Part shown: positions 1 to 45,800 of the stretch, one piece after another
How positions within the stretch are numbered: the first letter of the stretch is position 1
Layout of the letters: every line of letters starts with the position of its first letter
Source: a virus
Taxonomy: Duplodnaviria; Caudoviricetes
DNA length: 64,000 nt
Direction: 5' to 3' (one strand)
IMG/VR virus record: IMGVR_UViG_3300025715_000009
Span: 160,001 to 224,000 of that record
Made by a program: the position numbers and the translations under genes
The notes under the pieces: generated by a model
The model's input: the letters and a program-made list of their open reading frames with translations, nothing else
Told to the model about the DNA's origin: nothing
The model's database searches: none

Positions 1-1189
1 TACTTACACCCCAACTATTAAGTAGTTGATTAAACACTGTTGCATTATTAAACATAGCTTGAATAGTAGTAACATTACTTACATCCCAAGATCCAATGGG
101 TTGATTAAATGCAGCTGCATGACTAAACATATAACTCATATTTGTAATATTGCTTACATTCCAAGAAGATATATCTTGATTAAATAATGTTGCTAACATA
201 AACATACCTTGTGCATTGTTTATATTAGACAAATCTGGTTGTCCTATGTTAATCATATTTTTAGTATCTGCAAATTGGTAGCCATTATTATGAAGCTTCA
301 CACTACCCCAATCATTAATAGATAATAATTTACCAGCATCAGTACGCCTAGTAATATAAAATCCAAAACCATTACATTGTCCATCTATTGTTATTGTATA
401 TTCTCCGCCAGTAGAATAAGTATGTGTAGCTTCAGCTTGATTATAAGAAGTTATAATGTTTGAAGAACCATCACCCCAATTGACTGTAAAGTTATATACT
501 CCACTTGCATCAAGAGGTAATTTAATTGAATTTGTTCCAGATGTCTGTGTAGATGTTTTAGTAGTATCCCAAGTTGATGAGAATAATCCACCACCACTAG
601 CTGCTTTAACTATAACTGTATAACTCTTGGTTTGTGTTGCTCCATCTTTGCTAATTGTGGCAGTCATAATAACTGTTGCATCAGATCCAGAAGGTTGAGT
701 TACTACACCTGTATTACTTATAACAGATGGATTAGATGAAGACCAACTAATAGTAGTTGAATAATCACCAGTTGTTGGGAGTGTAAGATTAGATGTTATA
801 TTTTGTAAATTAGAATTTGATCCTAATCCTACTACTATACCTTGAGCTGCCAAATAAGCAGCTTCAGAATTACTGATCTCTAATGTATCTACAATTTGAG
901 ATAATGCATCATCAGCATTTTGTATAATTGTGTAATCTCCAATTGTCAATTTGAAAATATTGTCATCCGCACCACCTGCTGACCAATCAATTGCTACATC
1001 CATCATAGATGTAGGCATATCTTCAATGTTGGCAATTACTCCCATGCCCTTTAATGTTGCCACAAAGATTGATTGTATAGCAGCAATTTTCTTTTCATCA
1101 GTCATTGAAAGTATGAAATCTTTCAATGCTTGTATTTTTATTCCTCTTTTGAATGGTAATGTAGGATCTCTTCCTGCTAGTTGAGCCAT
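1..1189 (-). CDS. DUF285/BspA-like repeat protein with Ig-like and PKD-like domains (3' end runs off the window)
   Basis: Not in the ORF track. Manual translation from ATG 1189 (SD GGAGGGAG): MAQLAGRDP..., Ig-like NLTLPTTG..ISWSSSNPSVISNTGVVT, PKD-like FTVNWGDG..HTYSTGGEYTITI, then 25-aa repeats FNQDISSWNVSNITNMSYMF / FNQPIGSWDVSNVTTIQAMF. Confidence 0.85.
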   Translation of the reverse strand, partial: MAQLAGRDPTLPFKRGIKIQALKDFILSMTDEKKIAAIQSIFVATLKGMGVIANIEDMPTSMMDVAIDWSAGGADDNIFKLTIGDYTIIQNADDALSQIVDTLEISNSEAAYLAAQGIVVGLGSNSNLQNITSNLTLPTTGDYSTTISWSSSNPSVISNTGVVTQPSGSDATVIMTATISKDGATQTKSYTVIVKAASGGGLFSSTWDTTKTSTQTSGTNSIKLPLDASGVYNFTVNWGDGSSNIITSYNQAEATHTYSTGGEYTITIDGQCNGFGFYITRRTDAGKLLSINDWGSVKLHNNGYQFADTKNMINIGQPDLSNINNAQGMFMLATLFNQDISSWNVSNITNMSYMFSHAAAFNQPIGSWDVSNVTTIQAMFNNATVFNQLLNSWGVS

Positions 1190-10045: not shown

Positions 10046-12112
10046 CTACCAATCTATTACTGACATATAACTAATGCGTGGTGCTGTGTTACCAGGATAT
10101 AAAACCTTAACAAGAATCATATATCCTGAATTGACTGTATAATTTGTTCCTAATGTAAATTGGAAATCACTTGTTGTTTGTATATCTCTATTTACCCAAC
10201 ACCCATCATCATCTGCTCCACTAAATGAAGAGAAGTTATAATCTCTTGTTAGGTCTAACCATCCAGTTTGAGATGGGGCTTTAATCCATACACGAACATC
10301 ACGATTATATAATTGTGTTTTTGTTATTCCTGTCATTCTTAATGTACCTGATGCATGTGATGAAGATGTATCTCTAAAAGCTCTTAAATAAACTTTATTT
10401 GTTTCAGATGCTATAAGAGAATAATCAGGGTTTCCACTTGGCATATAAGTAGAGAAATTCAATGTTGGGAAATAAAGTTCATCCATATAGAGTTGTAATC
10501 CAGCTCCATCATCATAAGTATCAAGAGATTGAGTACTATCCCATTGACCCGTTATTGTAGATGGAATTGAATTATATGCTAAATTTTGAAGACGATATTG
10601 TTCATCTCTGAAATGTTCAACCAAATCTGTAGATGCATTCCCATAAGACCAAATTAATATATTTTGTGATGCAGATTGAACTGCTGTATATGAACCATAT
10701 GGATCACGAGGTGTTGCAGTAATTCTTGCATTACTTGCCATTTGATTTGCTGCTTGACCTAAAGACCAATTTGATACTGACATTATTTCACCAATATCAG
10801 GGGGTGAAGAAACGCCAGATACAGCAACATTGTTATATGTTATTTCTGTTGATGACATTCCAGGCCACCCTGAAAATACTAAAGGAGCTCCTGATGAATG
10901 ATATACATTATCAAAAGCATCGCTTACAGTAACATCTACATCCCAAGTTGATCCTGTATCATAATATTTAACACCAGATAGATATTTAAATACTGGCGTA
11001 TCTTCTGTAATAATTGGTGTTGAAACAGATGGATTAGAGCCTGTATCTGTATCATAGAAAATATGAACTGATGCAGAAGTTTGTATCCCACCTTCTTGAG
11101 TTGATAATCCTTCATGTTTAATATAAATTTCACTATAACCTTGACGTAATAAAGCAGGATCAGTTATTTCTGCCCTTACTTGGAAACGTTGATAAAATTT
11201 AAAACCATTATGAGCTTGAACTGAAAGGACTTGGAAAGTACCTCCAGTAAATGTTACTACACCATTAGATATAACACTTCCTGTACCTTGAACATCATAT
11301 TCAGTTAAAATTTGAGATCCATCACGATTTGCAGGATTAAAATTTGCTCCTAAATCTATTGCAGCAATTACTGATCCATTGATATATAACTTGACTACAC
11401 CACGATCTCCATAATTAGAATAATTACCACCAGGGGTAGTAATTGTAAAAGTTGAATCTCTTGTTATGTAATTTACAACATCACCTGCAGGATCATCTGA
11501 TTTGTAATTTATATTAGATTGTGATAATCCACCAGTTACAAATGTAGTTCCAGCTACTGTAAGAGTTTGCCCATTCATAGAAAGAGGCGGATCTGGTGGA
11601 CCAATATAAGCCACATTTTTACCATTTTCAGTATCAATATATACATCATCTTCTGCTTGTACGAAAACAAGTTTTTCTATATTTTCTCCATATGGATCAT
11701 TATCATATTCTGTAACTACTAATGTTGATGTAGCTTGAGACCATTCAGCTGCTGTAGAATCCCAACGATAGAGAATTCCATTTTCACGAACAAGACGAAT
11801 GTCTCCATTTTCATTACCATTAATTGGAAGATTAGCAAAAGTAGCAACATTTGGTTTCCATTGATTTTTTAATGTCAATCTTTCAATAGCTATTGCTTTT
11901 GTAAAATCTCCAGTTGTATTACCGATATCAGTTGTAGAGAGAATCAATCCAGTAGCAGGGTTATCTGATAAATTAGTGACCATATCATCAGACAAATAAC
12001 CGTCAATATCATTAACATCAATTGTTATTGATTGACCATCTGCTATGACAATACCAAGATCATCAATGCTAACTTCTGCTCCTGTGCTGTTTTTAAGATA
12101 GTATTCAGCCAT
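10046..12112 (-). CDS. Virion structural protein
   Basis: N-terminus shared with 1210..4632; C-terminal ~500 aa shared with 22977..28025 (STDL.E.FRDE.YRL, TGWL.L, SGYMI). Confidence 0.7.
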   Translation of the reverse strand: MAEYYLKNSTGAEVSIDDLGIVIADGQSITIDVNDIDGYLSDDMVTNLSDNPATGLILSTTDIGNTTGDFTKAIAIERLTLKNQWKPNVATFANLPINGNENGDIRLVRENGILYRWDSTAAEWSQATSTLVVTEYDNDPYGENIEKLVFVQAEDDVYIDTENGKNVAYIGPPDPPLSMNGQTLTVAGTTFVTGGLSQSNINYKSDDPAGDVVNYITRDSTFTITTPGGNYSNYGDRGVVKLYINGSVIAAIDLGANFNPANRDGSQILTEYDVQGTGSVISNGVVTFTGGTFQVLSVQAHNGFKFYQRFQVRAEITDPALLRQGYSEIYIKHEGLSTQEGGIQTSASVHIFYDTDTGSNPSVSTPIITEDTPVFKYLSGVKYYDTGSTWDVDVTVSDAFDNVYHSSGAPLVFSGWPGMSSTEITYNNVAVSGVSSPPDIGEIMSVSNWSLGQAANQMASNARITATPRDPYGSYTAVQSASQNILIWSYGNASTDLVEHFRDEQYRLQNLAYNSIPSTITGQWDSTQSLDTYDDGAGLQLYMDELYFPTLNFSTYMPSGNPDYSLIASETNKVYLRAFRDTSSSHASGTLRMTGITKTQLYNRDVRVWIKAPSQTGWLDLTRDYNFSSFSGADDDGCWVNRDIQTTSDFQFTLGTNYTVNSGYMILVKVLYPGNTAPRISYMSVIDW

Positions 12113-12145
12113 TATTTACATACTCCTATTATAAGGGAACTTGTA

Positions 12146-12154
12146 ATTATCTTT
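12146..12154 (-). promoter_or_regulatory. AAAGATAAT candidate phage promoter
   Basis: Same motif recurs in most intergenic gaps (13068, 18614, 35590, 54920, 58010, 62689). Confidence 0.5.
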
Positions 12155-12191
12155 ATGTTTATTGAAGAAAAAGATAGTTTTTAGCAAGAAA

Positions 12192-12611
12192 TTATGACAG
12201 ATTTAATTTTGATATGATTTGTTTAAAATCTTGAAATTCAAAAATTATTTTTAATGTTTTATGTAAATTTTTTTTATAAGATACTTCCAAATTACCATAT
12301 TTTAATATTAAAATAAATATATCAACTAAATCTTTTTCTGAAAAATTTTCAACATTTTCCTGAAATGTCTTGTATGGTGTTTCTCTAAATGGTGGATCAA
12401 AATATTTTTGAGTGTTTATTCTTAAATTGGCTTTATTTTTAATAAGATATTTAGCTATTTCCGCCCCATCTTTATGTTTGCCAGTTAGACAATAAAACAA
12501 TAAAGTTCTACCATAACTATCTCTTGTATTAATATCAATATGATCAGAGATAATTAAACTTAAAACATCTTGTAGTTGACCCTTAGCCAACATTCTGTTT
12601 ATTTCAACCAT
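12192..12611 (-). CDS. Ankyrin-repeat protein
   Basis: DINTRDSYGRTLLFY...EIAKYLIKNKAN ankyrin pattern; C-terminal TLKIIF. Confidence 0.75.
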   Translation of the reverse strand: MVEINRMLAKGQLQDVLSLIISDHIDINTRDSYGRTLLFYCLTGKHKDGAEIAKYLIKNKANLRINTQKYFDPPFRETPYKTFQENVENFSEKDLVDIFILILKYGNLEVSYKKNLHKTLKIIFEFQDFKQIISKLNLS

Positions 12612-12614
12612 GAT

Positions 12615-12836
12615 TTATAATTCACCAATTTTTGCTGTAAAGATATATTTAATAAATTTTCTCAGATGTTGCTTTTTAGCTGGAATATAATCAAATACTC
12701 TTATTCTATCATAAGATAAATAATCTATTTCTAATTTATTAATATCTTTGTCATATAATATAATTATACTAATAGGTTTAACATGTAAAAAGAGGCACTC
12801 AAAAGTATATTTAGTTCTTTTAGCGTAATTCCACAT
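12615..12836 (-). CDS. Small hypothetical protein, tandem paralogue of 12843..13064
   Basis: Both begin MWNY and share ECLFL.VKPISII.LYD and AKKQHLRKFIKYIFTA.IGE. Confidence 0.7.
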   Translation of the reverse strand: MWNYAKRTKYTFECLFLHVKPISIIILYDKDINKLEIDYLSYDRIRVFDYIPAKKQHLRKFIKYIFTAKIGEL

Positions 12837-12842
12837 AATATT

Positions 12843-13064
12843 TTATATCTCACCAATTTCTGCTGTAAAGATATATTTAATGAATTTTCTTAAATGTTGT
12901 TTTTTAGCAGAAGTAAATTCTCTTATTACTACTAAATCATATTTTTTATGTCGTATTTCGAGTATATTAAATTTTTCATCATATAATAATATTATACTAA
13001 TTGGTTTAACGTTTAAAAAGAGACATTCGTATTTATATTTATTTCCTGGTGTATAATTCCACAT
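12843..13064 (-). CDS. Small hypothetical protein, tandem paralogue of 12615..12836
   Basis: Start moved to MWNY (13064); the longer ORF would cross a terminator. Confidence 0.7.
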   Translation of the reverse strand: MWNYTPGNKYKYECLFLNVKPISIILLYDEKFNILEIRHKKYDLVVIREFTSAKKQHLRKFIKYIFTAEIGEI

Positions 13065-13067
13065 AAT

Positions 13068-13075
13068 ATTATCTT
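13068..13075 (-). promoter_or_regulatory. AAGATAAT candidate promoter, 3 nt before ATG (probably leaderless)
   Basis: Directly follows a terminator U-tract; no SD. Confidence 0.5.
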
Positions 13076-13077
13076 GC

Positions 13078-13106
13078 AAAAAAAAAGAGAGCAAGATGCT
13101 CTCTTT
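13078..13106 (-). terminator. Intrinsic terminator
   Basis: GAGAGCA-TCT-TGCTCTC stem-loop followed by T9 on the minus strand. Confidence 0.85.
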
Positions 13107-13124
13107 AAAATAAAACAACAATTA

Positions 13125-13394
13125 TTATACTTTATTGCCTTGTAATAATATCTTGGCAGCTATATTTGGTTCAGGATCAATTAAAATTCCACCTTTTAAC
13201 CAATCACAAAAATCATCCATTTTCATCTCTTGTTGGTTTACATATTGTCCATCTTTGCTAACACGACAAACAACATAAAGATCATTTTCATCTCCATCTT
13301 TAGGAGCGTATTTTGTTACATCGATAACACGGATGACATCTGCTCCATCAAAAACAACTGGAGGCATTGTAACTTGAAACATTCTTCCAATCAT
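13125..13394 (-). CDS. Hypothetical protein (C-terminal AAKILL)
   Basis: ORF track; SD GAGG. Confidence 0.6.
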   Translation of the reverse strand: MIGRMFQVTMPPVVFDGADVIRVIDVTKYAPKDGDENDLYVVCRVSKDGQYVNQQEMKMDDFCDWLKGGILIDPEPNIAAKILLQGNKV

Positions 13395-13396
13395 AT

Positions 13397-13699
13397 TTAC
13401 CTCTTCATTTGTAATCTAAATTTTGCTTCATCGCTTATATTATCAAATTTTACTAAATAAATTCTATTCTTTTTTTTACTATCTATTAAAAATCCTTGAA
13501 GTGATATTTGTCCAATGAATTGTAAGTTTATATCATAATTATCTATGAGAAAAAATAATGTATCTTGTATCATTCCAACATCTAAAATATGATAATATCT
13601 ACTAAAAGAAGAAGTCATAGTATCAAATGATAATGAATCATATAAAATATCATTTGGGCGTATATCTTCTACTGATTTTATTTCAATTAACTCAGACAT
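13397..13699 (-). CDS. Hypothetical protein (C-terminal EAKFRL)
   Basis: ORF track; overlaps the topoisomerase stop. Confidence 0.55.
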   Translation of the reverse strand: MSELIEIKSVEDIRPNDILYDSLSFDTMTSSFSRYYHILDVGMIQDTLFFLIDNYDINLQFIGQISLQGFLIDSKKKNRIYLVKFDNISDEAKFRLQMKR

Positions 13700-15455
13700 T
13701 TGGATATTTTTTATAAAAATCTGACTCTACATCCTTGGCCCATTCAAAACGAGCTTGTACTGATGGAGTATAAAGGCGCTTGATATCTACATTATTATCC
13801 TTACACCAACTAATACCAATCCTCGGATCAGAATAATTCAGTTTAGATGTACCAAGAGCAACGCCCTTGGTTTTTTCTTTCATATCAATTTTAGATTGAA
13901 GGTCATTAATTCTTTCTTCGAGCTTATTTAGCTTTTTAGTAAGAGCTTCCTCTTTCTTTTTATATGTTTCTTTAGCTCTCCTTATACTATCTTTTTTTCT
14001 ATCACCAGTATACTTCTCAGCAAAGGAGATACGCTTATCTCTTTCTTGTTTGAGAAGATCAAGCTCTTGTTTGAGAGATGCCTTAATATTTTTAAATTCA
14101 TTTTTATATGTCTTAAGCTTATCCTTCATGTTCTGCAGAGAGCGTTCATATGCTTCAGAAACAGCAGATTGGTGATTAAGCTTAAGAGCAACTTCTAAAT
14201 TGGCATTAACATAATACTCAAGTTTTTTCTTCTCAGAAAGAGAAGAATTGATTTTTTGAGCTTGTAATTCCTTGGCTAGAAGAACAGAGCCGGTAGCTGT
14301 TCTAAATTGTTTCGCAGTGAGACCAGGAAGTACCATACCCAAGAATTCATTGACATCAGAACTTGTAATTGAATCAAAAACTTGTTCACTTTTTCCTTTA
14401 CCATTAATAAACTCCTCTATATTACGAATTGCATTAATATGCAAATTCTCTACACGATTATGGTAGCGAATGCTATCTTTGCCAAGAAAATCAAAAACAA
14501 CTGCTGTCCCATCAACTTGAATATGCTCTACTCTCAGAGTAGTAGCACCCACGGTATCAGCTTCGTCTTCATCTTTTTCATCTCCTACACGAATACTCAT
14601 TTTGGCAATGAGCTCGCAGACAGTTGCAATTTGACGAGTAGAACGATCACGAGATGCAAGTTTCTTTTCAATAAATGAATTTACTTTATCAAAGTTATTT
14701 GCCAGCTCTATTGCCTTGGCAAATTTCTTTTCAGCTGATTTGTGAGATACAATAGAAGTAGCAGAAAAGAGGATTGGTTTAAATTTGCCAGTAAGAGGAC
14801 AATACCACCCAGCAGTAAAAAGACTATTTTGATTCTCTTCTACCCTCTTCCAAGAATGACCTTCAGGAGGAGAAGGAGGGTTAAGATTGAGAGAGTGGTT
14901 AATTATAACATCTTCAGGGGCGATTGCTCTTTTCCATGAACCACGAAGAGGATGATTACCTCTCCCAAGGAAAAGGCCAGCAGGTTCAACCACATAATTA
15001 CCAAGAGGAACTTTTTGACCATCAAGTTCAGCAAAACCATGAATAGCTTTTAGCTCTTCTCTCTTCCTCTTCTCTTCTTCTTTTACCTCTTTCCCAATCT
15101 GCTTTTTTTCATCTCTTTGAGCAATATAAATTCGTCGTAGTTTAGTAAAATCCCAGTCTTCAGGAAACTTAGATTTCTTTATCTCTTCATAATCAAGGTA
15201 GTTGTTAAGAGTAGAATTAGCAAGACCATCAGAAAATGTTTTGATAAAGTCTTTAAAAAAATTCTTTTGAAAAGTTTTGTCTTTTACATATGGTGTTTCA
15301 AATTTAGCAACCCAAGCCCATGCCATTTCTTCTTGTTTGGAAGTGAAAACAAATTCTTTATCAAACAGCTTAAAACAGGCACCCTTAAACTGATAAGGTT
15401 TAGGGAATACAGGGCCATTATGTTTAAGTGTTTTCCATTTTTCTGCCATATTCAT
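13692..15455 (-). CDS. DNA topoisomerase IB, long (eukaryote/archaea-like) form
   Basis: KWKTLKHNGPVFP; EPAGLFLGRGNHP; catalytic R (IRVGDEK), K (FLGKDSI), R (TAKQFRT), H (LNHQ), coiled-coil linker, Y in GTSKLNYSDPRI. Confidence 0.95.
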   Translation of the reverse strand: MNMAEKWKTLKHNGPVFPKPYQFKGACFKLFDKEFVFTSKQEEMAWAWVAKFETPYVKDKTFQKNFFKDFIKTFSDGLANSTLNNYLDYEEIKKSKFPEDWDFTKLRRIYIAQRDEKKQIGKEVKEEEKRKREELKAIHGFAELDGQKVPLGNYVVEPAGLFLGRGNHPLRGSWKRAIAPEDVIINHSLNLNPPSPPEGHSWKRVEENQNSLFTAGWYCPLTGKFKPILFSATSIVSHKSAEKKFAKAIELANNFDKVNSFIEKKLASRDRSTRQIATVCELIAKMSIRVGDEKDEDEADTVGATTLRVEHIQVDGTAVVFDFLGKDSIRYHNRVENLHINAIRNIEEFINGKGKSEQVFDSITSSDVNEFLGMVLPGLTAKQFRTATGSVLLAKELQAQKINSSLSEKKKLEYYVNANLEVALKLNHQSAVSEAYERSLQNMKDKLKTYKNEFKNIKASLKQELDLLKQERDKRISFAEKYTGDRKKDSIRRAKETYKKKEEALTKKLNKLEERINDLQSKIDMKEKTKGVALGTSKLNYSDPRIGISWCKDNNVDIKRLYTPSVQARFEWAKDVESDFYKKYPNV

Positions 15456-15470
15456 ATTATAATCCTTTTA

Positions 15471-16019
15471 TTAATTCTCTAAATTAAGTAATAGTTTGGC
15501 TGCTCTTGCTTGCAAACGATCAAAATCATCAATGAATAAAAATATATCATAACTCCAATGGCCATAACTCCCACTACCAGACCCTGTGTTTAATGGTATA
15601 GGATATATATTATTTTTATAACTAGGAAGATATTCTCCTTTACTTGTATAAGTTTTTCCACTTATCCTGCCTCTATATCCAGGATAACCAAATGGGAGTT
15701 CAGGTTTATTATGCCAGTTTGTTGGTTTTCCTACTGGAGCATGATGACTATTAGACACCTCTGGATTAAATGTGACATCAAGAGATATATCATCAATATG
15801 GTCATCATACATTTCTTTAAGAAAATCATTTATCACTTCAAGATAGTTATCTAAATCAAAGTTTTTATAAAATTTTGCAACTGCATTTGCATAATTATTT
15901 TTTCTAAATTCTTCTAAAGCAGCTTCTTTTCTACAAATATCTTCATGCTCAAAAGCTTTTTTTATATTAGAGAATTTCTTTTTACAGTACTCACATTGAT
16001 AATGCTCAACTATAATCAT
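15471..16019 (-). CDS. Zinc-finger phage protein (C-terminal AAKLLL)
   Basis: YQCEYC...HEDIC finger; VSNSHHAP..GYPGYRGRI motif. Confidence 0.6.
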   Translation of the reverse strand: MIIVEHYQCEYCKKKFSNIKKAFEHEDICRKEAALEEFRKNNYANAVAKFYKNFDLDNYLEVINDFLKEMYDDHIDDISLDVTFNPEVSNSHHAPVGKPTNWHNKPELPFGYPGYRGRISGKTYTSKGEYLPSYKNNIYPIPLNTGSGSGSYGHWSYDIFLFIDDFDRLQARAAKLLLNLEN

Positions 16020-16020
16020 C

Positions 16021-16293
16021 TTAATGCTCCAATAAATATTTAGCCATTATTACATCAAATTCATCTTTTGTTATTACTTTTATAGCTGTTTTTAATAATC
16101 TATTTATCCCAGCCAAGTTATGAACAATATCACCCTCTGTTAAACCATAACTTGAAAAATAATAAAATTTAACTTTATATTCATAAGTTTTATCTGTCTT
16201 TCTTCTTGAGTATAAAAAATAATATTCATCGTCATCATCTTTTACATTATGTCTTTTACAAACAAATACTTGACCAACTTTATGCACCTTCAT
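16021..16293 (-). CDS. Hypothetical protein (C-terminal MAKYLL)
   Basis: ORF track; SD AAGGAG. Confidence 0.55.
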   Translation of the reverse strand: MKVHKVGQVFVCKRHNVKDDDDEYYFLYSRRKTDKTYEYKVKFYYFSSYGLTEGDIVHNLAGINRLLKTAIKVITKDEFDVIMAKYLLEH

Positions 16294-16639
16294 TTAATTG
16301 CTCCTTGGCAATAACATCCCACCCTATTTTAACTATTGATCCAACATAAATTTTATGATCTAAAACTCTTTTTGGCACCCATTTAATCAACTCATCTGGG
16401 TCTTTCATATTACTAAAACTCCAAGTATAATACTTGGTGTCTGTTTTGCCTTTTTCACAAAATAATCTTATTTTATAAATAAATTTTTTATTAAATTTTC
16501 TTTTATCTACTATTTCCATATACTTTAAAGAATTATATGGAAAAAATTGGGTTGTTCTTCCCAATCCATCTTTCGAGACATCACTATCAAACCCATAACT
16601 TTTGGGACAAGTAAAAACATCACCAACTTCGAACATCAA
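16280..16639 (-). CDS. Hypothetical protein (C-terminal IAKEQL)
   Basis: ORF track; SD GGAG; FEVGD start typical of SH3-like phage orphans. Confidence 0.55.
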   Translation of the reverse strand: MMFEVGDVFTCPKSYGFDSDVSKDGLGRTTQFFPYNSLKYMEIVDKRKFNKKFIYKIRLFCEKGKTDTKYYTWSFSNMKDPDELIKWVPKRVLDHKIYVGSIVKIGWDVIAKEQLNEGA

Positions 16640-16829
16640 AACTCCAATTTTCGCATATACTACAAGAAGGATCTATATCATCAATATTTATTTGATTAGC
16701 ATCACAATATATATAACCTTTACCTTTAATCAAATAATAACAATTAATACATAGTTTAACATCTTGATTATTTAATAATTCCTTGGCCAAAAAATTGACT
16801 GGCCATTGTTGGGGAACTACTCTTCTCAA
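16620..16829 (-). CDS. Small Cys-rich hypothetical protein
   Basis: CINC, YC and CSIC; ATGA coupling. Confidence 0.55.
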   Translation of the reverse strand: MRRVVPQQWPVNFLAKELLNNQDVKLCINCYYLIKGKGYIYCDANQINIDDIDPSCSICENWSFDVRSW

Positions 16830-17011
16830 ACGTTTTCTACCCCAGTAATCTTAATTCCATATTCATCTTTTTCCCAAGTGAATTGGAATTTTTTCCTCTT
16901 ATCCACCCAATCTTCAAGAGAGTCAAGATGTCCATCATCAGTAATGAGCATATTATACTCTTTACAAAGATCAGCAAATTTTTCTAAAAATTCATGCTGG
17001 AATCTATTCAT
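16826..17011 (-). CDS. Small hypothetical protein
   Basis: Start moved to MNRFQ (17011), which follows SD AAGGAG. Confidence 0.55.
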   Translation of the reverse strand: MNRFQHEFLEKFADLCKEYNMLITDDGHLDSLEDWVDKRKKFQFTWEKDEYGIKITGVENV

Positions 17012-17201
17012 CTCTTCTCTCCTTGATAAATTTATTGATATCAATTTCTTGACCATTAAAATAAAAATGATCACCAGAAAATGGACGCAAAATAGCTTTG
17101 ATTAGTTGAATAATATAAGTTAATATTGTGGATAAAATTATTATTCCACCTAAAAATATCCAAAAACCATTAAATAATAATAGTTGTAATATCTCAATCA
17201 T
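17004..17201 (-). CDS. Small membrane protein
   Basis: Long hydrophobic N-terminal segment; ATGA-type coupling. Confidence 0.6.
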   Translation of the reverse strand: MIEILQLLLFNGFWIFLGGIIILSTILTYIIQLIKAILRPFSGDHFYFNGQEIDINKFIKERRDE

Positions 17202-17821
17202 TTAAATAATTCTCCCTTAGAATTATACCAGAAAACAAAATCAAGAGCAAAAACAGGAATATTAATATCATGGGCAAAATCAATCATTTTACTTTCAATT
17301 TCTAAATATGCTTTTTTATTCATATGCCTAGGAACTTCAGGGATGACTTTGTTAGCTACAAGATTTCTAAGAATATGGCGATCAAGAATACAAATTTCAT
17401 CACCAAAACCAACATTTCTAAGAAAATGACTTGCTTCTTTCATGCCCAATCCATTAATAGTATCTGCAAGCCAATTTCTTGTTTCTACTACTCCGATCTC
17501 TGCAATTTTATTTTCAACTATATTTTTAATATTGCTATATTGATTAATTGCTTGAGCAATATACTTGGCTTTGTTTTTATTAAATCTTACACCAGCTGCA
17601 CTTAATTCTTGCTGAATTAGATATTGATCTGGTATATTTAAAAGATTTGACTTAGTAAGATATTGAACTGCTTTCCACCCACACTTAGCATTTGTTTGTG
17701 GAGTGCAAAGACAAAACACAAGTTCTGAAAATACTTCTTGTCCACCTAATTTCCAAATTGTTTTAAATGTTAGGTATCGTTGATCAATCTCTGGTTTAAT
17801 TTGTTTGTAGATCTGCAACAT
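17198..17821 (-). CDS. ogg: 8-oxoguanine DNA glycosylase/AP lyase (OGG2 type, HhH-GPD)
   Basis: FSELVFCLCTP, GVRF..NKAKYI, HhH GLGMKEASHFLRNVG, ILDRHILR, LD..FW and C-terminal Lys. Confidence 0.9.
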   Translation of the reverse strand: MLQIYKQIKPEIDQRYLTFKTIWKLGGQEVFSELVFCLCTPQTNAKCGWKAVQYLTKSNLLNIPDQYLIQQELSAAGVRFNKNKAKYIAQAINQYSNIKNIVENKIAEIGVVETRNWLADTINGLGMKEASHFLRNVGFGDEICILDRHILRNLVANKVIPEVPRHMNKKAYLEIESKMIDFAHDINIPVFALDFVFWYNSKGELFK

Positions 17822-18634: not shown

Positions 18635-18661
18635 AAAAAAGAGAGCAAAAAGCTCTCTTTT
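18635..18661 (-). terminator. Intrinsic terminator
   Basis: GAGAGC-T5-GCTCTC plus T6 on the minus strand. Confidence 0.8.
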
Positions 18662-39831: not shown

Positions 39832-42800
39832 TTATTTAACTATAATCATTCTAATTATATCATTCTGTGATCTTGCTAATGTCAATACTCCATTCTCAAG
39901 TTGAACCATGTCAATACCAACTGTCTTACCAGTAGATGGATCAAAGAATGTGAATACAGCATCATATGAAGCATCAACTTGTATCAATGATATATAAGCA
40001 TTTTTTGTAGGATCCCAAGTCCATTTTTGAATATCTTTTGTTATACTATTATTTGCCTTCTTCACAATAAAGACATTCATTGTCGTAGCATTATCTGCTG
40101 TCTTTACTCTTATTGTATTGAGATCAATAAATTCTATTGATTCGGCTCCTGTAAGCCAACCAAGACCTAATGTTGTATCAATATCAAATGTTGATACCAT
40201 GAGTTTATTAGTATTAAAATTATGAACTATATCAGCATAATATCCACCTTGACCATCTGGCGTCCATTGACTTACTACTTTAGAATATTTATCAATTACT
40301 CCAAACACTGTAATATCTAAATTAAGAGAATTGTCAGCAACATAAATACGAACATTGTTTGCATCTAATCTTTCTATTTCTTCAACACCTATTACTATTC
40401 CATTTTCTGTAATAAGACAAACGACATCTGTTGTTCCTAATCCATGATTTACATCAGCATAATAATATCCATTATATTGCCCAGATCCAACTTGCCAAGC
40501 TGTATTTAATATTTCACCTTGTGATGATGTTTTGTCTTTTTGATTGAGATAAACATAATCAATTGCTGCTTGTACTGTTGTTGCTGGAATAGTAGAAGTT
40601 GTATTATTATATGATATGTCAGAAGCTTGGCCCCAATCAATATCGGCAATTTTAACCCATGCTGTTCCACTCCATACATATTGTGCTTGTCTTCCATCAC
40701 CATCATCTAATACTGTTCGAGCATTTCCAACTGTATTTCCTGATGTTGGAAGATCAGCATAAGTATTAACTGGTGATTGCCAAGATAATGCCCCTGCTAA
40801 TGCTGCTATCTTATCATCAACTTCTGCTAATGCACCTTCGACTGTTGTTGCAGTATATTTACCTGCAACATCTTGTATACTAATTAATGAAGCACCTTTA
40901 CCTACTGTTGTACTTGCTAAATCTTGTCTAATAGATAAATCACCATTTACACGATTATTAATCTCAGTTGATAGTCCAGTGCTTAATGCCCCAACAGATT
41001 GATTAAGATTAAATATGTCGTTTGAATTAACTGCAATTGCAACATTAGCAGATGATATATTTTGTGTATTTGTAGTAATTCTACTTTCATGATTCATCAA
41101 GTTTGGTTTTGTTGCTAAAGCATTCCAAGTAGAACCGTCAATACCGTCTTTCATTAATCCTAATGTATTGTTTATATTAGATATACTTGATGAATTAGAA
41201 GATGTGTTTGTTTGTAATGTTGATATGTCTGATATCATACCTTGAATTGCATTATAATTCCCAGCAACAGTCATAGAAGCATTTCTTCCTGGTCCGGCTA
41301 ATTCTTGTAGCACATCTTCAACTGTTGTTTCTATAAATAATCCATTGCCTTCTACTCCAATTAGTGATGCTCCACGATTAAGATCTTGACTCAACAAATC
41401 AGTTCTTAATGCATTTACAGTTGCTTGTCTATCATTTACTTCTTGTGTAATTCTTGATGATAGTGTAACATTATTCATTGTAGAAGCAATAAAACTAGAT
41501 CCAATAGCAGTTGCGGATGATAATGTTGCTCCTAATGAAGAAATTAAATCTAAATAAGAAATTCCAGATTGTATATTAATTGCATGACCAAGTGTATAAT
41601 CTGTTTTATCAAATATTCTAATATTATATAATGTGTTAACTCCATCGATATAAGATATTGCTTCAATACGATATGATAAAGATAGTGGAAGGCCAGATGT
41701 AGTATGTATTGCATTTGGCAAATAATTTATAATCAAATCTTCCCAAGTTATTATTGATGATGTAGTAAAATAATACTCTCCACCATTGATAATAAGAGAA
41801 TAATCACCATTAGATGAAAGAGCAGTATCATCAGCATCTACAAATCCAGTTAAAATATCTTGATAAGATTCTGCTACAGATGTTTGATTGTCTTTTATTG
41901 ATTCAACTTCTATATCAAGAGCAGTTAAATTTGTTTTAATATTATAAATATTATAACCACTTGACTGAGCCAAACTTCTAGTCCATAATCCAGAATTCCC
42001 ATCTTGCATATAATCAAGATCTTCTAATGAAGTAGAAGTTGATGATCCAATTGCAGTAATATCATCTTTTAAAGATTTCAAACTTTCAGTTGTTCTACCA
42101 GCACCTGCAATTTCTTGTAATATGTCTTCTACCGTAGTAGCAGAGTATCTAGCACCAACATCATAGACACCAATTAGTGCCGCACCTTTATTTATATCCG
42201 TAGATGCATACAAATCTTTTATTTGTTGATCTGCAATAACTCTAGCATTTATTTCATTATTCAAACCATCAGATAAAGTATCAATATTGCCATCAAGTGT
42301 ATTAACTGCATTATTAGTATTAATAAGATTATTTTGAATTGAAGTTGTTTTAATATCTAAATTTAATGCAGTTGCCTCAAGAGTTGTTATTCTATTTTCG
42401 TGATTACCAACACCAGATGGTAAAGATGAAGAATCTTGATTAAATGGCCAAGCATACCCAGTGAAATTCTTTAATTTACTAATTGCATTATCATTATTGA
42501 TTTCATTCTCTTCATATTCTGCCACTCTACTTTGTAATGAGTTGACAGTATTCACAATATCATTTGTTATATCAACATATTCATAAGTATCTTGTTTTAT
42601 GCCAAGAATTTCATTTTTCATTTCTTCTATATTAGAAGAAATAAATGATTCATTATAAAATTCATAAGTAGTATTCCAATTTAATACTTCTGAATCTGTT
42701 GTTGTATAGTCGTGAATTATTACATCTTTTACAACAATATCAGCGGCTTTTTCTGTACTTGTGTCGTATCCAATATACATATCAGCCCATATGTTGTTTG

Positions 42801-45800
42801 CAAATGGAGAATCAATGATATAATTAAAATAATCGAACCAATAAACAAATCTATTGTTGATATAATCATAAACAAAACCAATAGAATGCCATTGATTAAA
42901 GAAATCATCGGTTGTTTCAAATCTCCAAATTGATGAAGAATCATTATTTATAGAATATTCAAATATACCTCTATTTTTGTCTGAATCAAAATAATAAATA
43001 ACTTTTAATCCAAGAGATTGATTAACAATTCCAGCATCATAAGCAGGCAAAGAAATTATTGTTTTTGTTTCATTATTCTCGTATTCAAAATATGGTTTAA
43101 ATTTAAAGAATATAGTTCCTCTTTCTTTGTTAAGCAAAGATTTACCAATCTTAATTCTACCAATAGTATTATTAGTTGACTCAACAAATGGAGAAGCAAA
43201 TGTTTTTGCTTCTAATTGAACTGAATCAATATAAATACGATCAACTTCTTTTATAACAAATCCAATATTATAATCACCTGCATATTCATTTATAAATGTA
43301 TAAATTACTCTCCACCAATTATCATCAAGTTTTTCAATCTTAGTCCAATTTTTTTCTTCATTAGTAATCTTACATTGTAAATGATTAGATGTAATTCTGT
43401 CATCACTATGAATATAAGCAGATAATGTATATTTTGTATTCTCTTGTAAGAATTTTCTTTGAGTTATATAAAGAGGAACTGTGGACATCTTTTCAACAAC
43501 TAAAGAATTTTCAGAGAATTTATTATATTTTGGATTAAGATTAAAAGAGACAGTGTTATTTAATGGTGTTTCTAAAACAACTGATATATCCCAAATTTCA
43601 GAACCAGGAACTCCAACTTGTTTTAATCCAGATATTACCTGTATTGGATTAATTACACCAACATCTTCTTTAAAATCAACTTCAATAGAGGAGGCAACAA
43701 AATCATCTGTTAAGAACATTAATCTTCCATTTCTTATACCCCAAGTAATTCTTGTATTTATTCCTTCAAATGCAGCATACATCATCTTCTCTAATTCATA
43801 TTGATTAGAAATTGTTACTCTAGCATAACCATCAAATGCTGCTGGAAGAGTAGAATAATTCACACCTATTGCAGTTAACAAATCGTTCGTTTCTGTTGTG
43901 TCTGTAAATTTAACGCCTGAATTTGTGCCTTCAAAATTTGATATTGCTCTAATATCTAATCCAACTTTATTCCAAGATATACCTAAATTTAAATTGTTTA
44001 ATTTAGAAAGGATAATATCCCATCTATCATCTACTGGTGTTCCATATTGTTTTGTTTGAGTAGTTGCATCAAGTGCATCTAATAATTCACAAGTTGGATT
44101 TATTTCAACAGATGCAGTATCTCCTCTTGCTGTTGTTGTGGCTCTTAATTTGCCATTTACAATTGACCATATAAGATCGCCTGATGTAACAACATTTAAT
44201 TTATTTACAAGACTTGCAAATGTTGTATTTGCATTTGATCCTTCTTGGAAAATTAAATATCTAGCTCCAGCAGTTCCAGATCTTGGATTTATATTAACAG
44301 CACCATTTTCTATATTTGTAAATCTAACATATGGTAATTTACCTTGATAATTTACGGCTAATGTTATAACACCATTTAATGTTCCTATTGATGGATCAGA
44401 AATATAGTGTGTATCATCTGTTGTAACTATTTCAACAACTGCACCAGTCCCAGATGCATTAAATTCTGCTGCAGTATTTACCGTAGTTCTTATTGCATCT
44501 GCTATCTCTTCTTTTGTAACAAGCCCATCAATTTCAACTTTAATTCCAGTATAACCAGATGGAGAAGGATTGGTTGTTGGTTTTATACCACTTGTTATTA
44601 CACTACCAGTAAAATTAATATAAGAAAAATCAGGTGGTGAAACAGATTCTTTTACAGCATTTGTAACTGTCAATATATTATTAAGAACAGTTGAATTAAA
44701 ATCAATAACACTATTTATTCTACTATTAGTTAATGATGCTACATCGTTTGCTGACTCATTTGCAGCAATTTCAACCATATGTCCAATACCAGAACCTAAA
44801 TATGTTTTTGCTCTATAATTTTTACCCTTTACTTTAAGACTAAAAATCATATCAGAGCCAAATGTTCCATTTGAAGATTCAAGACTGGTTGCTCCTGCAG
44901 GAATAATAAATCTGGCTGTATATTCACCTTCACTGTTATAATTTCTTATCATCGAATCATTTGTAAATCCAGATACTTGAGCGGTCAATACAGCAATTGT
45001 TTTTTCTATAATAGCAATTCTCTGATCAACACCAGTTATTGAAGAATCAAGATCTACTTTAATTCTATTTTTATCAGAAGGTGGAAGTGTAACAGATTGA
45101 TTATTAACAGTATAATAAACATAATAATCTCCTGTTGGCGTTGATAACTCAAAATATTTACCTTCATAGTCTTCTTTTAATTTAATCGTATCTGTGAATT
45201 CAAGAGTAAATTGTTCTTGAACTGCAGGCTGATTTATTCCAGGATCACGGCCATCATTAGCAACATTATACCAGAAATAGTGCTCATTTCCACCGCCTGA
45301 AATGGTAAAGAATTTTTCATTAAGCATTAAATTTGGATCATTGCTTGTTGTGTCATCAGCAGAACAAGTAATTTCTGTAACTTGTTCAACGCCAGCTTGA
45401 TTAGCATCAAACCATACATAATATAATCTATCATTACCATATTGATCATTGCTCATAATAGTAAAATATTTACTATCATAATCAAGAATATTGTTTGATA
45501 GTGCTGTTATTGTGGTAGTTTCTGCTTGACCATTATGCTTGGTTGCAGTCATTTTGGTGACTGGGAACGCAGTCGCAACTTTTGTTAAAATTGCATCTTG
45601 ATTATCACCACTTGCTATTACTACCTCAACACCAGTTTTTGTGCTTGGAGAAGCAAGATTTGTATCTGGCGCAGCACCTACTTTTGTTGTTGTAATTGTA
45701 AATATTCCAATTGAATCATGATCTTCTGCTAATGAAAGAGTAGCATTTTGAGTATTTGTTATTGTAATAACATTATCAACTCTTTGAATGTTAAAATCTG

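What the first reader, a model, noticed from the sequence alone, without database searches (positions are those of the whole stretch)
13692..15455. Long-form eukaryote/archaea-type topoisomerase IB in a bacteriophage
Seen: full catalytic set plus the N-terminal core (KWKTL.HNG..FP, EP.GLF.GRG.HP) and a coiled-coil linker. Knowledge: poxviral and most bacterial TopIB are short and lack these parts, whereas eukaryotic and thaumarchaeal enzymes have them; T4-like phages normally use type II enzymes. Inference: cross-domain transfer or a deep viral lineage relevant to TopIB origins.
Basis: partly seen in the sequence, partly recalled or inferred. Interest (0 to 1): 0.75.

Follow-up and report, generated by a model that had tools for sequence, protein, structure and literature searches.

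The report
Eukaryote-type topoisomerase I in huge phages
A 388-kb T4-like sludge bacteriophage carries a complete, apparently active copy of the long topoisomerase IB otherwise typical of eukaryotes and some archaea; it belongs to a previously undescribed phage-only branch of that enzyme family and seems to be the phage's only topoisomerase.

Summary
Observation confirmed. Window 13692-15455 (-) encodes a 587-aa long-form topoisomerase IB. It has all three Pfam domains, the R289/K326/R385/H428/Y541 pentad and a two-helix linker. The AlphaFold model (pLDDT 92) overlays DNA-bound human Top1 along its whole length (TM 0.81-0.84).

The genome is a 98%-complete 388-kb virus record with a T4-type capsid gene, UvsX/UvsW, 59 tRNAs and a tmRNA-like gene, so the host is bacterial. 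No type IA, IIA or IIB topoisomerase domain was found.

Misassembly is excluded: independent contigs from other studies span the locus.

The gene is not a singleton. About 60 metagenomic protein clusters (43-97% identity) form one clade (100/98 support). Its members lie in T4-type replication and recombination modules. The nearest cellular proteins are only about 38% identical.

In trees the clade lies outside the archaeal group (AU p=0.015). It sits next to eukaryotes plus giant viruses (93/87, tentative) and shares the eukaryote-length linker.

INPHARED and PHROGs hold no relative. No paper found reports it.

The enzyme itself is canonical; the phage lineage is new. The scan has noted this enzyme family before on other DNA, but only in archaeal genomes.

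The parts
13692..15455 (-). Long-form topoisomerase IB gene (587 aa, P0001), stop codon included
   Evidence: ORF; three Pfam domains; full-length matches to human Top1 and archaeal CsTOP1; AF2 model pLDDT 91.9 with TM 0.81-0.84 to 1k4t/1rrj
14772..15440 (-). N-terminal DNA-binding cap (Topoisom_I_N, residues 6-228), including KWKTLKHNG and EPAGLFLGRGNHP
   Evidence: Pfam PF02919, 6e-54; own-genome search 6.3e-56
14079..14744 (-). Catalytic core (Topoisom_I, residues 238-459) carrying R289, K326, R385 and H428
   Evidence: Pfam PF01028, 1.5e-62; residues invariant in all 82 aligned sequences
13872..14156 (-). Coiled-coil linker: two antiparallel helices, residues 434-479 and 485-528
   Evidence: DSSP on the AF2 model; His-to-Tyr spacing 113 aa, like eukaryotes (median 115) and unlike archaea (66) or giant viruses (68)
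13716..13919 (-). C-terminal domain (Topo_C_assoc, residues 513-580) with the active-site block LGTSKLNY541SDPR
   Evidence: Pfam PF14370, 2.2e-24; alignment to human LGTSKLNY723LDPR
13833..13835 (-). Codon of the catalytic tyrosine Y541
   Evidence: Aligned with human Y723; Tyr in every sequence that has a residue at this column (81 of 82; one clade row has a gap)
15463..15467 (-). AAGGA Shine-Dalgarno, 7 nt before the ATG. The upstream gene's stop codon is at 15471-15473, so the genes are tightly packed and co-directional
   Evidence: Sequence read directly
17198..17821 (-). Ogg-HhH 8-oxoguanine DNA glycosylase in the same co-directional small-gene block. The same gene is kept near TopIB in the 64%-identical relative L082
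   Evidence: Pfam PF22175, 2.5e-56; synteny in L082
13084..13106 (-). Terminator-like hairpin plus T-run downstream of the block. A similar one at 18637-18661 lies upstream. Together they may bound the transcription unit (inferred)
   Evidence: Consensus scan: 8 terminator-like sites against 2.0 expected

Best explanation
The gene encodes a functional long-form (eukaryote/archaea-type) type IB topoisomerase of a 388-kb T4-like bacteriophage. Shown: the domain architecture, the catalytic residues, the fold, the phage context and the membership of a phage-specific clade. Inferred mechanism: the enzyme clamps duplex DNA between the N-terminal cap and the catalytic core. Tyr541 cuts one strand and forms a 3'-phosphotyrosyl link. 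The DNA then swivels under control of the linker, which releases positive and negative supercoils without ATP, and the nick is resealed. Inferred role: it is the phage's own swivel for replication, recombination and the massively one-directional transcription of a very large genome. It would do the relaxing work that T4 assigns to its type II enzyme (gp39/52/60), which this phage lacks. Evolution: the gene was not taken recently from any sampled cell. It belongs to an old lineage that circulates among distant T4-like huge phages.
For: Identity and integrity.
Phage and bacterial host: virus record, 98% complete; Gp23 capsid 1.4e-71; UvsW, UvsX and rIIA-like genes; tail genes beside the locus; 59 tRNAs; tmRNA-like gene E 1.4e-14; Shine-Dalgarno.
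Sole topoisomerase: no PF00521, PF00204, PF01131 or PF04406 domain; the only Toprim hit is a 361-aa ORF with a zinc-ribbon-like motif; TopIB is single copy. T4 scored positive as the control.
Replication role: in divergent clade members the gene lies among gp44 clamp loader, RNase H, UvsY, UvsW, ligase and UvsX (L168). In L170 it lies between UvsX and rIIA-like/rIIB, the slot where T4 keeps genes 39/60.
Clade: 29 rows at 100/98; 49 rows at 96.5 in a 243-row tree. No cultured phage and no PHROG family matches.
Long residence: GC, GC3 and codon usage lie inside the genome's own range, at the 86th-90th percentile. The position is kept in a relative of 64% identity.
Real DNA: contigs from other studies span the locus.
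Against: No biochemistry exists, and activity and drug sensitivity are inferred from conserved residues. In this genome the gene lies between tail-fibre modules, not in the replication module at about 5-30 kb. The nearest capsid relatives have neither TopIB nor type II enzymes. A phage topoisomerase is therefore dispensable in this group, and 'replacement of topo II' is not demonstrated. A TopIB cannot decatenate intact duplexes, so host enzymes may still be needed. Divergent topoisomerases outside the Pfam models tested could have been missed. The host is unidentified.
Confidence: 0.75

Rival explanations
1. Recent cross-domain capture: this phage, or a close ancestor, picked the gene up lately from an archaeon, a eukaryote or a giant virus in the sludge community.
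For: The family is otherwise typical of eukaryotes, giant viruses and archaea. The gene's GC (35%) is somewhat above the genome mean of 30%.
Against: The best cellular identity is about 38-39%. The one 54% hit among GTDB genomes is a 16.5-kb phage-like contig binned into a MAG. About 60 clusters at 43-97% identity form one phage clade with deep internal branches. Holding the clade with archaea is rejected (AU p=0.015). Eukaryotes plus giant viruses form their own clade at 100/99.
Confidence: 0.05
2. The enzyme is used mainly against the host or at entry rather than as a replication swivel. It might relax the negatively supercoiled bacterial chromosome to shut down host transcription. Or it might be packaged in the virion, as in poxviruses, to act on incoming DNA and early transcription.
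For: In this genome the gene lies in a small-gene block between tail-fibre modules. Vaccinia TopIB is a virion enzyme (textbook knowledge). Bacteria have no TopIB-like relaxase of negative and positive supercoils that works without ATP.
Against: In three divergent clade members the neighbours are replication and recombination genes. No signal for packaging was found. There are no expression-timing data, and sigma-70-like sites in the block are not above chance (62 against 56 expected).
Confidence: 0.15
3. Artefact: a chimeric assembly or a contaminating cellular or giant-virus fragment joined to phage DNA.
For: The record is a metagenome-derived contig. No end repeats were found.
Against: A 3.6-kb contig from another digester sample covers 13205-16811 with 4 differences. 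An 8.1-kb contig from a 2025 activated-sludge run, a strain differing at 181 positions, is collinear over 11720-17500. The same gene order is seen in L082 and L088 from other samples. Gene packing, strand and Shine-Dalgarno match the neighbours.
Confidence: 0.01
4. The virus infects an archaeon (for example a Nitrososphaerota or DPANN archaeon in sludge), and the TopIB is simply a host-type gene.
For: The nearest cellular homologues by E-value are archaeal. The best solved-structure match is archaeal CsTOP1.
Against: The genome has a T4-type Gp23 capsid, and UvsX, UvsW and rIIA genes. rIIB is seen in clade member L170; the rIIB query found no match in this genome. It has a tmRNA-like gene, and tmRNA is a bacterial system. 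Relatives carry OmpA and SLT peptidoglycan-related genes. The nearest cultured capsids come from phages of Microcystis, Rhodothermus and Aeromonas. The tree places the clade away from archaea.
Confidence: 0.03

Closest known systems
Eukaryotic nuclear topoisomerase I (human TOP1, PDB 1K4T/1A36/1RRJ)
   Same: Same three-domain layout of cap, core, coiled-coil linker and C-terminal Tyr domain. Same catalytic pentad. The camptothecin-contact residues are conserved (R364, D533, T718, N722 correspond to R165, D327, T536, N540). Full-length fold match at TM 0.81-0.84. The His-to-Tyr linker spacing is 113 aa against 91 aa in human, and the eukaryote median is 115. It lies on the same side of the tree.
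   Different: Only 33-37% identical. It lacks the 200-plus-aa charged N-terminal extension (3-5 residues before the KW motif, against a median of 258). It is encoded by a bacteriophage. It forms a separate clade.
Archaeal long TopIB (Caldiarchaeum subterraneum CsTOP1, PDB 6Z01, PMC8748870; Thaumarchaeota TopoIB, PMC2621148)
   Same: Same domains, no N-terminal extension and similar length. Best sequence match among solved structures (E 2e-106). About 38% identity to Nitrososphaerota proteins.
   Different: Archaeal enzymes mostly have a short linker (His-to-Tyr median 66 aa; the CsTOP1 alignment breaks in the linker). The tree separates them by a 100/100 branch, and uniting them with the phage clade is rejected at p-AU 0.015.
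Long TopIB of giant viruses of eukaryotes (Nucleocytoviricota MAGs in IMG/VR, including records of 617,453 bp and 1,259,197 bp)
   Same: Virus-encoded long form. They group with eukaryotes on the same side of the tree as the phage clade.
   Different: 31-36% identity, short linker (median 68 aa), eukaryotic hosts, and a separate clade joined to eukaryotes at 100/99.
Short 'phage-specific' TopIB of some jumbo phages (phiRSL1, Lu11, PaBG, Motura, NCTB; Iyer et al. 2021, PMC7824862) and the poxvirus, Deinococcus and mimivirus short TopIB
   Same: Same catalytic fold and chemistry (tyrosine-recombinase-like domain). Also found in large phages.
   Different: The short forms lack the Topoisom_I_N cap and the linker. 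None gave a tblastn match in 50,697 phage records, and there is no PHROG match. Variola and Deinococcus structures align only over about 220 residues (TMq about 0.3).
Phage T4 type II topoisomerase gp39/gp52/gp60
   Same: Probable functional counterpart: a phage-encoded relaxase serving replication in T4-type phages. In clade member L170 the TopIB gene lies directly upstream of rIIA-like/rIIB, where T4 has genes 39 and 60.
   Different: An unrelated protein family. It is ATP-dependent, passes double strands and can decatenate. It is absent from this genome and from all seven related viral records tested.

Membership tests
Long-form type IB topoisomerase (Pfam PF02919 + PF01028 + PF14370) | Catalytic pentad Arg-Lys-Arg-His plus nucleophilic Tyr | tested here: met
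   R289, K326, R385, H428 and Y541 align with human R488, K532, R590, H632 and Y723. R289, K326, R385 and H428 are invariant in all 82 aligned sequences; Y541 is Tyr in 81, with one clade row gapped at that column.
Long-form type IB topoisomerase (Pfam PF02919 + PF01028 + PF14370) | N-terminal DNA-binding cap (core subdomains I/II, Topoisom_I_N) | tested here: met
   PF02919 at residues 6-228, 6e-54, well above the cut-off. It matches the yeast N-terminal fragment 1OIS.
Long-form type IB topoisomerase (Pfam PF02919 + PF01028 + PF14370) | Coiled-coil linker between the core and the C-terminal domain | tested here: met
   Two antiparallel helices, 434-479 and 485-528, at pLDDT about 90. They overlay the human linker in full-length alignments.
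Long-form type IB topoisomerase (Pfam PF02919 + PF01028 + PF14370) | C-terminal domain with the SKxxY active-site block | tested here: met
   PF14370 at residues 513-580, 2.2e-24. Block LGTSKLNYSDPR.
Long-form type IB topoisomerase (Pfam PF02919 + PF01028 + PF14370) | Closed clamp fold around duplex DNA | tested here: met
   The AF2 model (pLDDT 91.9, pTM 0.84) overlays human Top1-DNA complexes at TM 0.81-0.84 over about 585 columns. This is a prediction, not a solved structure.
Long-form type IB topoisomerase (Pfam PF02919 + PF01028 + PF14370) | ATP- and Mg-independent relaxation of positive and negative supercoils through a 3'-phosphotyrosyl intermediate | not testable with these tools
   Needs purified protein and plasmid relaxation and cleavage assays.
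Long-form type IB topoisomerase (Pfam PF02919 + PF01028 + PF14370) | Camptothecin sensitivity (typical of eukaryotic enzymes; reported from memory for thaumarchaeal enzymes) | tested here: inconclusive
   The contact residues are conserved: R165, D327, T536, N540, F162 and G164. Drug response itself cannot be tested here.
Short TopIB (poxvirus / bacterial / jumbo-phage type) | About 300-350 aa, with a small N-terminal domain and no cap or linker | tested here: not met
   The protein has 587 aa with cap and linker. Short forms align only to residues about 250-410.
T4-like (Gp23-capsid) tailed bacteriophages | T4-type major capsid protein and T4-type recombination and replication genes | tested here: met
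   Gp23 1.4e-71. UvsW, UvsX and rIIA-like genes found by tblastn. The capsid is only 25-40% identical to cultured phages, so the relationship is distant.
T4-like (Gp23-capsid) tailed bacteriophages | Phage type II topoisomerase (gp39/52/60) | tested here: not met
   No PF00521 or PF00204 match in this genome. T4 scored positive in the same searches.

The most novel reading that the evidence does not exclude
The long TopIB of T4-like huge phages is the closest outgroup of the eukaryote plus giant-virus enzymes, and it already has the eukaryote-length coiled-coil linker. Eukaryotic Top1 would then descend from a viral lineage (tailed phages, then giant viruses or proto-eukaryotes) rather than vertically from archaea. 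This would mirror the pattern proposed for Topo IIA (Guglielmini et al. 2022, PMC9752973).
Probability: 0.2. Interest if true: 0.85.

Novelty: new member of a known kind. Interest (0 to 1): 0.62.

Why it matters
The long topoisomerase IB has been treated as a marker of eukaryotes and of certain archaea, and has been used to argue for its presence in their common ancestor (PMC2621148). A sizeable, old, phage-only branch adds a third player to that history. The branch lies outside the archaeal group, next to eukaryotes and giant viruses, and has a eukaryote-length linker. This makes the origin of eukaryotic Top1 testable with real sequences.

It also shows that very large phages can run a 388-kb genome with an ATP-independent swivel as their only recognisable topoisomerase. 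That is a different solution from T4's type II enzyme.

In practice these proteins are small, lack the N-terminal extension and are predicted to be camptothecin-sensitive. They could serve as convenient models or reagents.

Tried and rejected
- tblastn of the protein against 50,697 phage records gave no match. PHROGs gave no family.
- A single-protein scan of IMG/VR found only one distant locus. The clade profile was needed.
- The idea that TopIB replaced T4 topo II was weakened. The four nearest capsid relatives lack both enzymes, so only the L170 gene order speaks for it.
- The sigma-70 promoter scan of 12-21 kb was not above chance (62 against 56.3). The TATAAT just before the ATG is the spacer after the Shine-Dalgarno, not a credible promoter.
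- The AU test of 'all phage TopIBs are one clade' stalled under the mixture model. It was redone under LG+F+G4 and monophyly was not rejected (p-AU 0.41).
- A first direct IQ-TREE run failed or timed out.
- The 54% hit in a 'Gammaproteobacteria' MAG was rejected as host evidence, because the contig looks like phage DNA.
- RNA-library contigs cover most of the gene with no differences. This is not proof of transcription, because DNA carry-over cannot be excluded.
- Parts of the stretch without contig cover in single runs carry no meaning.
- Rooting with short TopIBs was not attempted, because the alignable part is too short and divergent.
- No complex prediction was run.
Full report
**1. Observation**

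Window 13692-15455 (minus strand) is one uninterrupted ORF of 587 aa. An AAGGA Shine-Dalgarno lies 7 nt before the ATG, and the upstream gene's stop codon is only 15 nt away.

Pfam finds all three domains of the long-form enzyme:
- Topoisom_I_N, residues 6-228, 6e-54
- Topoisom_I, residues 238-459, 1.5e-62
- Topo_C_assoc, residues 513-580, 2.2e-24

Against solved structures the best match is 6z01 (E 2e-106). This is the archaeal Caldiarchaeum subterraneum TOP1 (PMC8748870). It is followed by full-length matches (residues 6-581) to human TOP1 at about 1e-89. Poxvirus and Deinococcus short enzymes match only about 140 residues of the catalytic domain.

The catalytic pentad is R289/K326/R385/H428/Y541, equivalent to human R488/K532/R590/H632/Y723. 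The four R/K/R/H residues are invariant in all 82 aligned sequences, and Y541 is Tyr in the 81 that have a residue there (one clade row is gapped). The camptothecin-contact residues R165, D327, T536 and N540 are present in this protein; R165, D327 and T536 are constant across the phage clade, while N540 is Ser in 3 of its 29 rows.

An AlphaFold2 model built on a 36-sequence alignment has pLDDT 91.9 and pTM 0.84. It shows two long antiparallel helices (434-479 and 485-528), which form the coiled-coil linker. The model overlays DNA-bound human Top1 at TM 0.81-0.84 over about 585 columns.

**2. What genome this is**

The window is bases 160001-224000 of a single 388,268-bp contig. The contig is an IMG/VR virus record that CheckV rates 98% complete.

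Evidence that it is a distant T4-like phage of a bacterium:
- It has a T4-type Gp23 capsid gene (1.4e-71).
- It has UvsW, UvsX and rIIA-like genes.
- The flanks of the locus hold baseplate and fibre genes: Tail_P2_I, Peptidase_S74 and Mtd.
- It carries 59 tRNA genes.
- It carries a tmRNA-like gene (41.7 bits, E 1.4e-14, slightly below Rfam's gathering score). tmRNA is a bacterial system.

The capsid is only 25-40% identical to any cultured phage. The nearest are Microcystis phage Mel-JY01, Rhodothermus phage RM378 and two uncultured phages of 484 and 595 kb. The phage occurs in anaerobic-digester and activated-sludge metagenomes. The host species is unknown.

**3. Not an artefact**

The stretch is held near-identically by runs from several studies and years. 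A 3,607-bp contig from another digester sample covers 13205-16811 with 4 differences. An 8,105-bp contig from a 2025 activated-sludge run is collinear over 11720-17500 with 181 differences, so it is a strain variant.

Contigs of an RNA library cover most of the gene with no differences. This is not proof of transcription.

A relative of 64% protein identity keeps the same neighbourhood: Ogg glycosylase, small ORFs, TopIB, a 690-aa protein and a 1142-aa protein. The gene's GC (35.4%), GC3 (24%) and codon usage lie inside the genome's own spread, at the 86th-90th percentile.

**4. The only topoisomerase**

Searches of the whole genome found none of the following:
- GyrA/ParC/gp52 domain (PF00521)
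- GyrB/gp39 domain (PF00204)
- type IA domain (PF01131)
- Topo VI/Spo11 domain (PF04406)

Control genomes were hit in each of these searches, and T4 itself scored positive for PF00521 and PF00204.

The single Toprim hit is a 361-aa ORF with a zinc-ribbon-like motif. It is probably a primase, but this was not verified. TopIB is single copy.

None of seven related viral records with a TopIB has PF00521. However, the four nearest capsid relatives, which lack TopIB, also lack type II domains. Phage topoisomerases are therefore optional in this group. A strict 'swap' of topo II for TopIB is not shown.

**5. Relatives**

The large protein search returned about 60 clusters at 43-97% identity, all with the three domains. 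Some lie on contigs of 183, 275, 288, 480 and 732 kb. Identity then drops to about 38-40% with Nitrososphaerota and other archaea.

Among 185,579 reference prokaryote species the only close hit (54%) is a 16.5-kb contig in a 'Gammaproteobacteria' MAG. Its neighbours are phage-like: one gives phrog_7293 at 8.7e-88 and most are ORFans.

IMG/VR holds 138 viral contigs with a long TopIB:
- four close phage contigs (49-64% identity)
- two at 38-40% identity
- many giant-virus MAGs at 31-36% identity

Divergent clade members lie in unmistakable T4-type modules:
- L168: gp44 clamp loader, RNase H, UvsY, UvsW, TopIB, NAD-ligase, UvsX
- L169: UvsX, TopIB, SLT
- L170: clamp loader, UvsX, TopIB, rIIA-like, rIIB

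In T4 the transcribed order is 39 - 60 - rIIA (- rIIB). In L170, therefore, TopIB occupies the slot of the type II genes.

L093 (38% identity, 189 kb) also has a Gp23 capsid gene.

No cultured phage in INPHARED has a match, and no PHROG family matches the protein.

**6. Phylogeny**

The careful tree used 82 sequences, 558 columns and the LG+C20+F+G4 PMSF model. It gives:

| Grouping | Support |
|---|---|
| Archaea plus a few bacterial MAGs, on one side of a branch | 100/100 |
| Phage clade (29 rows) | 100/98 |
| Eukaryotes plus giant viruses | 100/99 |
| Phage clade sister to eukaryotes plus giant viruses | 93/87 (below the tool's threshold for a firm branch) |
| Second viral pair (L093/L001) | 100/100 |

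The L093/L001 pair branches between the archaeal side and the rest.

Forcing the phage clade to the archaeal side costs 12.9 lnL units and is rejected (p-AU 0.015). Uniting the main clade with L093/L001 is not rejected (LG+F+G4, delta 6.4, p-AU 0.41). A single ancient origin in T4-like phages therefore remains possible.

A 243-row tree with dense eukaryote-like and giant-virus sampling (LG+F+G4, fast search) keeps the backbone. The phage clade has 49 rows (SH-aLRT 96.5). It is sister (97.3) to a 129-row clade of eukaryotes plus giant viruses (100).

Caveats:
- The trees are unrooted.
- Phage and giant-virus proteins come from AT-rich genomes.
- Eight rows fail the composition test.
- The sister relation is not firmly supported.

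An independent character agrees with the tree. The spacing from the catalytic His to the Tyr, a proxy for linker length, differs by group:

| Group | Median His-to-Tyr spacing (aa) |
|---|---|
| Phage clade | 112 |
| L093/L001 | 114 |
| Eukaryotes | 115 |
| Archaea and bacterial MAGs | 66 |
| Giant viruses | 68 |

**7. Mechanism**

By homology the enzyme should clamp duplex DNA. Tyr541 would nick one strand and form a 3'-phosphotyrosyl link. The DNA would then rotate under linker control to release positive or negative supercoils without ATP, and the nick would be resealed. These steps are inferred from conserved residues and fold. None is shown biochemically.

The most likely role is a phage-owned swivel for replication, recombination and transcription. 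Every ORF of at least 150 aa in the 64-kb window is on one strand, except one that overlaps a 1682-aa gene. This role is supported by the replication and recombination neighbourhoods in other clade members.

In this genome the gene sits with an Ogg glycosylase in a small-gene block between fibre modules, bounded by terminator-like hairpins. A role in host shut-off or as a virion enzyme therefore cannot be excluded.

**8. Comparison with what is known**

The enzyme is a canonical member of the long TopIB family.

Known before:
- long TopIB in eukaryotes
- long TopIB in Thaumarchaeota and Aigarchaeota (PMC2621148, PMC8748870)
- short TopIB in poxviruses, bacteria and mimivirus (Benarroch 2006, as cited in PMC8097291)
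- a short 'phage-specific topoisomerase I' in some jumbo phages (PMC7824862)

Four literature searches found no report of the long form in tailed phages. The new element is therefore the lineage and its position, not the enzyme type.

The pattern resembles the one described for Topo IIA, where Caudoviricetes and Nucleocytoviricota versions branch between the cellular groups (PMC9752973).

Earlier notes of this scan record the same enzyme family only in archaeal genomes.

**9. Verdict**

The protein is a new member of a known enzyme kind. It defines an undescribed phage clade that bears on the origin of eukaryotic Top1. Interest is moderate to high.

Noticed in passing
window 39832-54099 (-): A single 4755-aa ORF inside the tail module has no Pfam match at all. 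It is one of the largest phage proteins one could expect.
   Followed up: no
G000 293264-365537 (outside the window): There are 59 tRNA genes in one region. They include a tRNA with anticodon CTA, which would read the TAG stop codon. The long structural ORFs in the window are nevertheless open under the standard code.
   Followed up: no
G000 about 286.8 kb (L176:1342-1615, -): A tmRNA-like gene matches the full Rfam model at 41.7 bits (gathering score 47), E 1.4e-14. It was used here only as a marker of a bacterial host.
   Followed up: partly
L170:5707-11424: In a divergent clade member the TopIB gene lies directly upstream of a 922-aa rIIA-like gene and rIIB. This is the position that T4 gives to its type II topoisomerase genes 39 and 60.
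   Followed up: partly
window 12615-12836 and 12843-13121 (-): Two tandem small ORFs are paralogues. They share the C-terminal stretch KKQHLRKFIKYIFTA.IGE.
   Followed up: no
window 19545-19518, 18397-18369, 15483-15456 (-): The same promoter-like pattern TTTAGA-N16/17-TATAAT recurs three times on the coding strand. The overall count of sigma-70-like sites is not above chance, and the third copy overlaps the Shine-Dalgarno spacer of the TopIB gene.
   Followed up: partly
L023, L049, L059 (Anaerolineae MAGs); L031 (Cytophagia MAG) with L053 (Heimdallarchaeota): Long-form TopIB genes occur in a few bacterial MAGs and nest among archaeal sequences in the tree. This suggests archaea-to-bacteria transfers or binning errors.
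   Followed up: no
window 17198-17821 (-): An Ogg-HhH 8-oxoguanine DNA glycosylase lies in the same small-gene block as TopIB. It is kept nearby in the 64%-identical relative L082.
   Followed up: partly
L084 (JGI contig of 732,019 bp): A 732-kb contig built of dense small co-directional ORFs (YopX, DnaJ, ornithine decarboxylase) carries a clade member of 51% identity. If it is a phage, it is among the largest known.
   Followed up: no
window 2-1189 (-): An ORF running off the window's start combines an aBig_2 domain with a DUF285 ('Mycoplasma') repeat domain. It lies next to a 1142-aa protein with a weak pectinesterase-like stretch.
   Followed up: no
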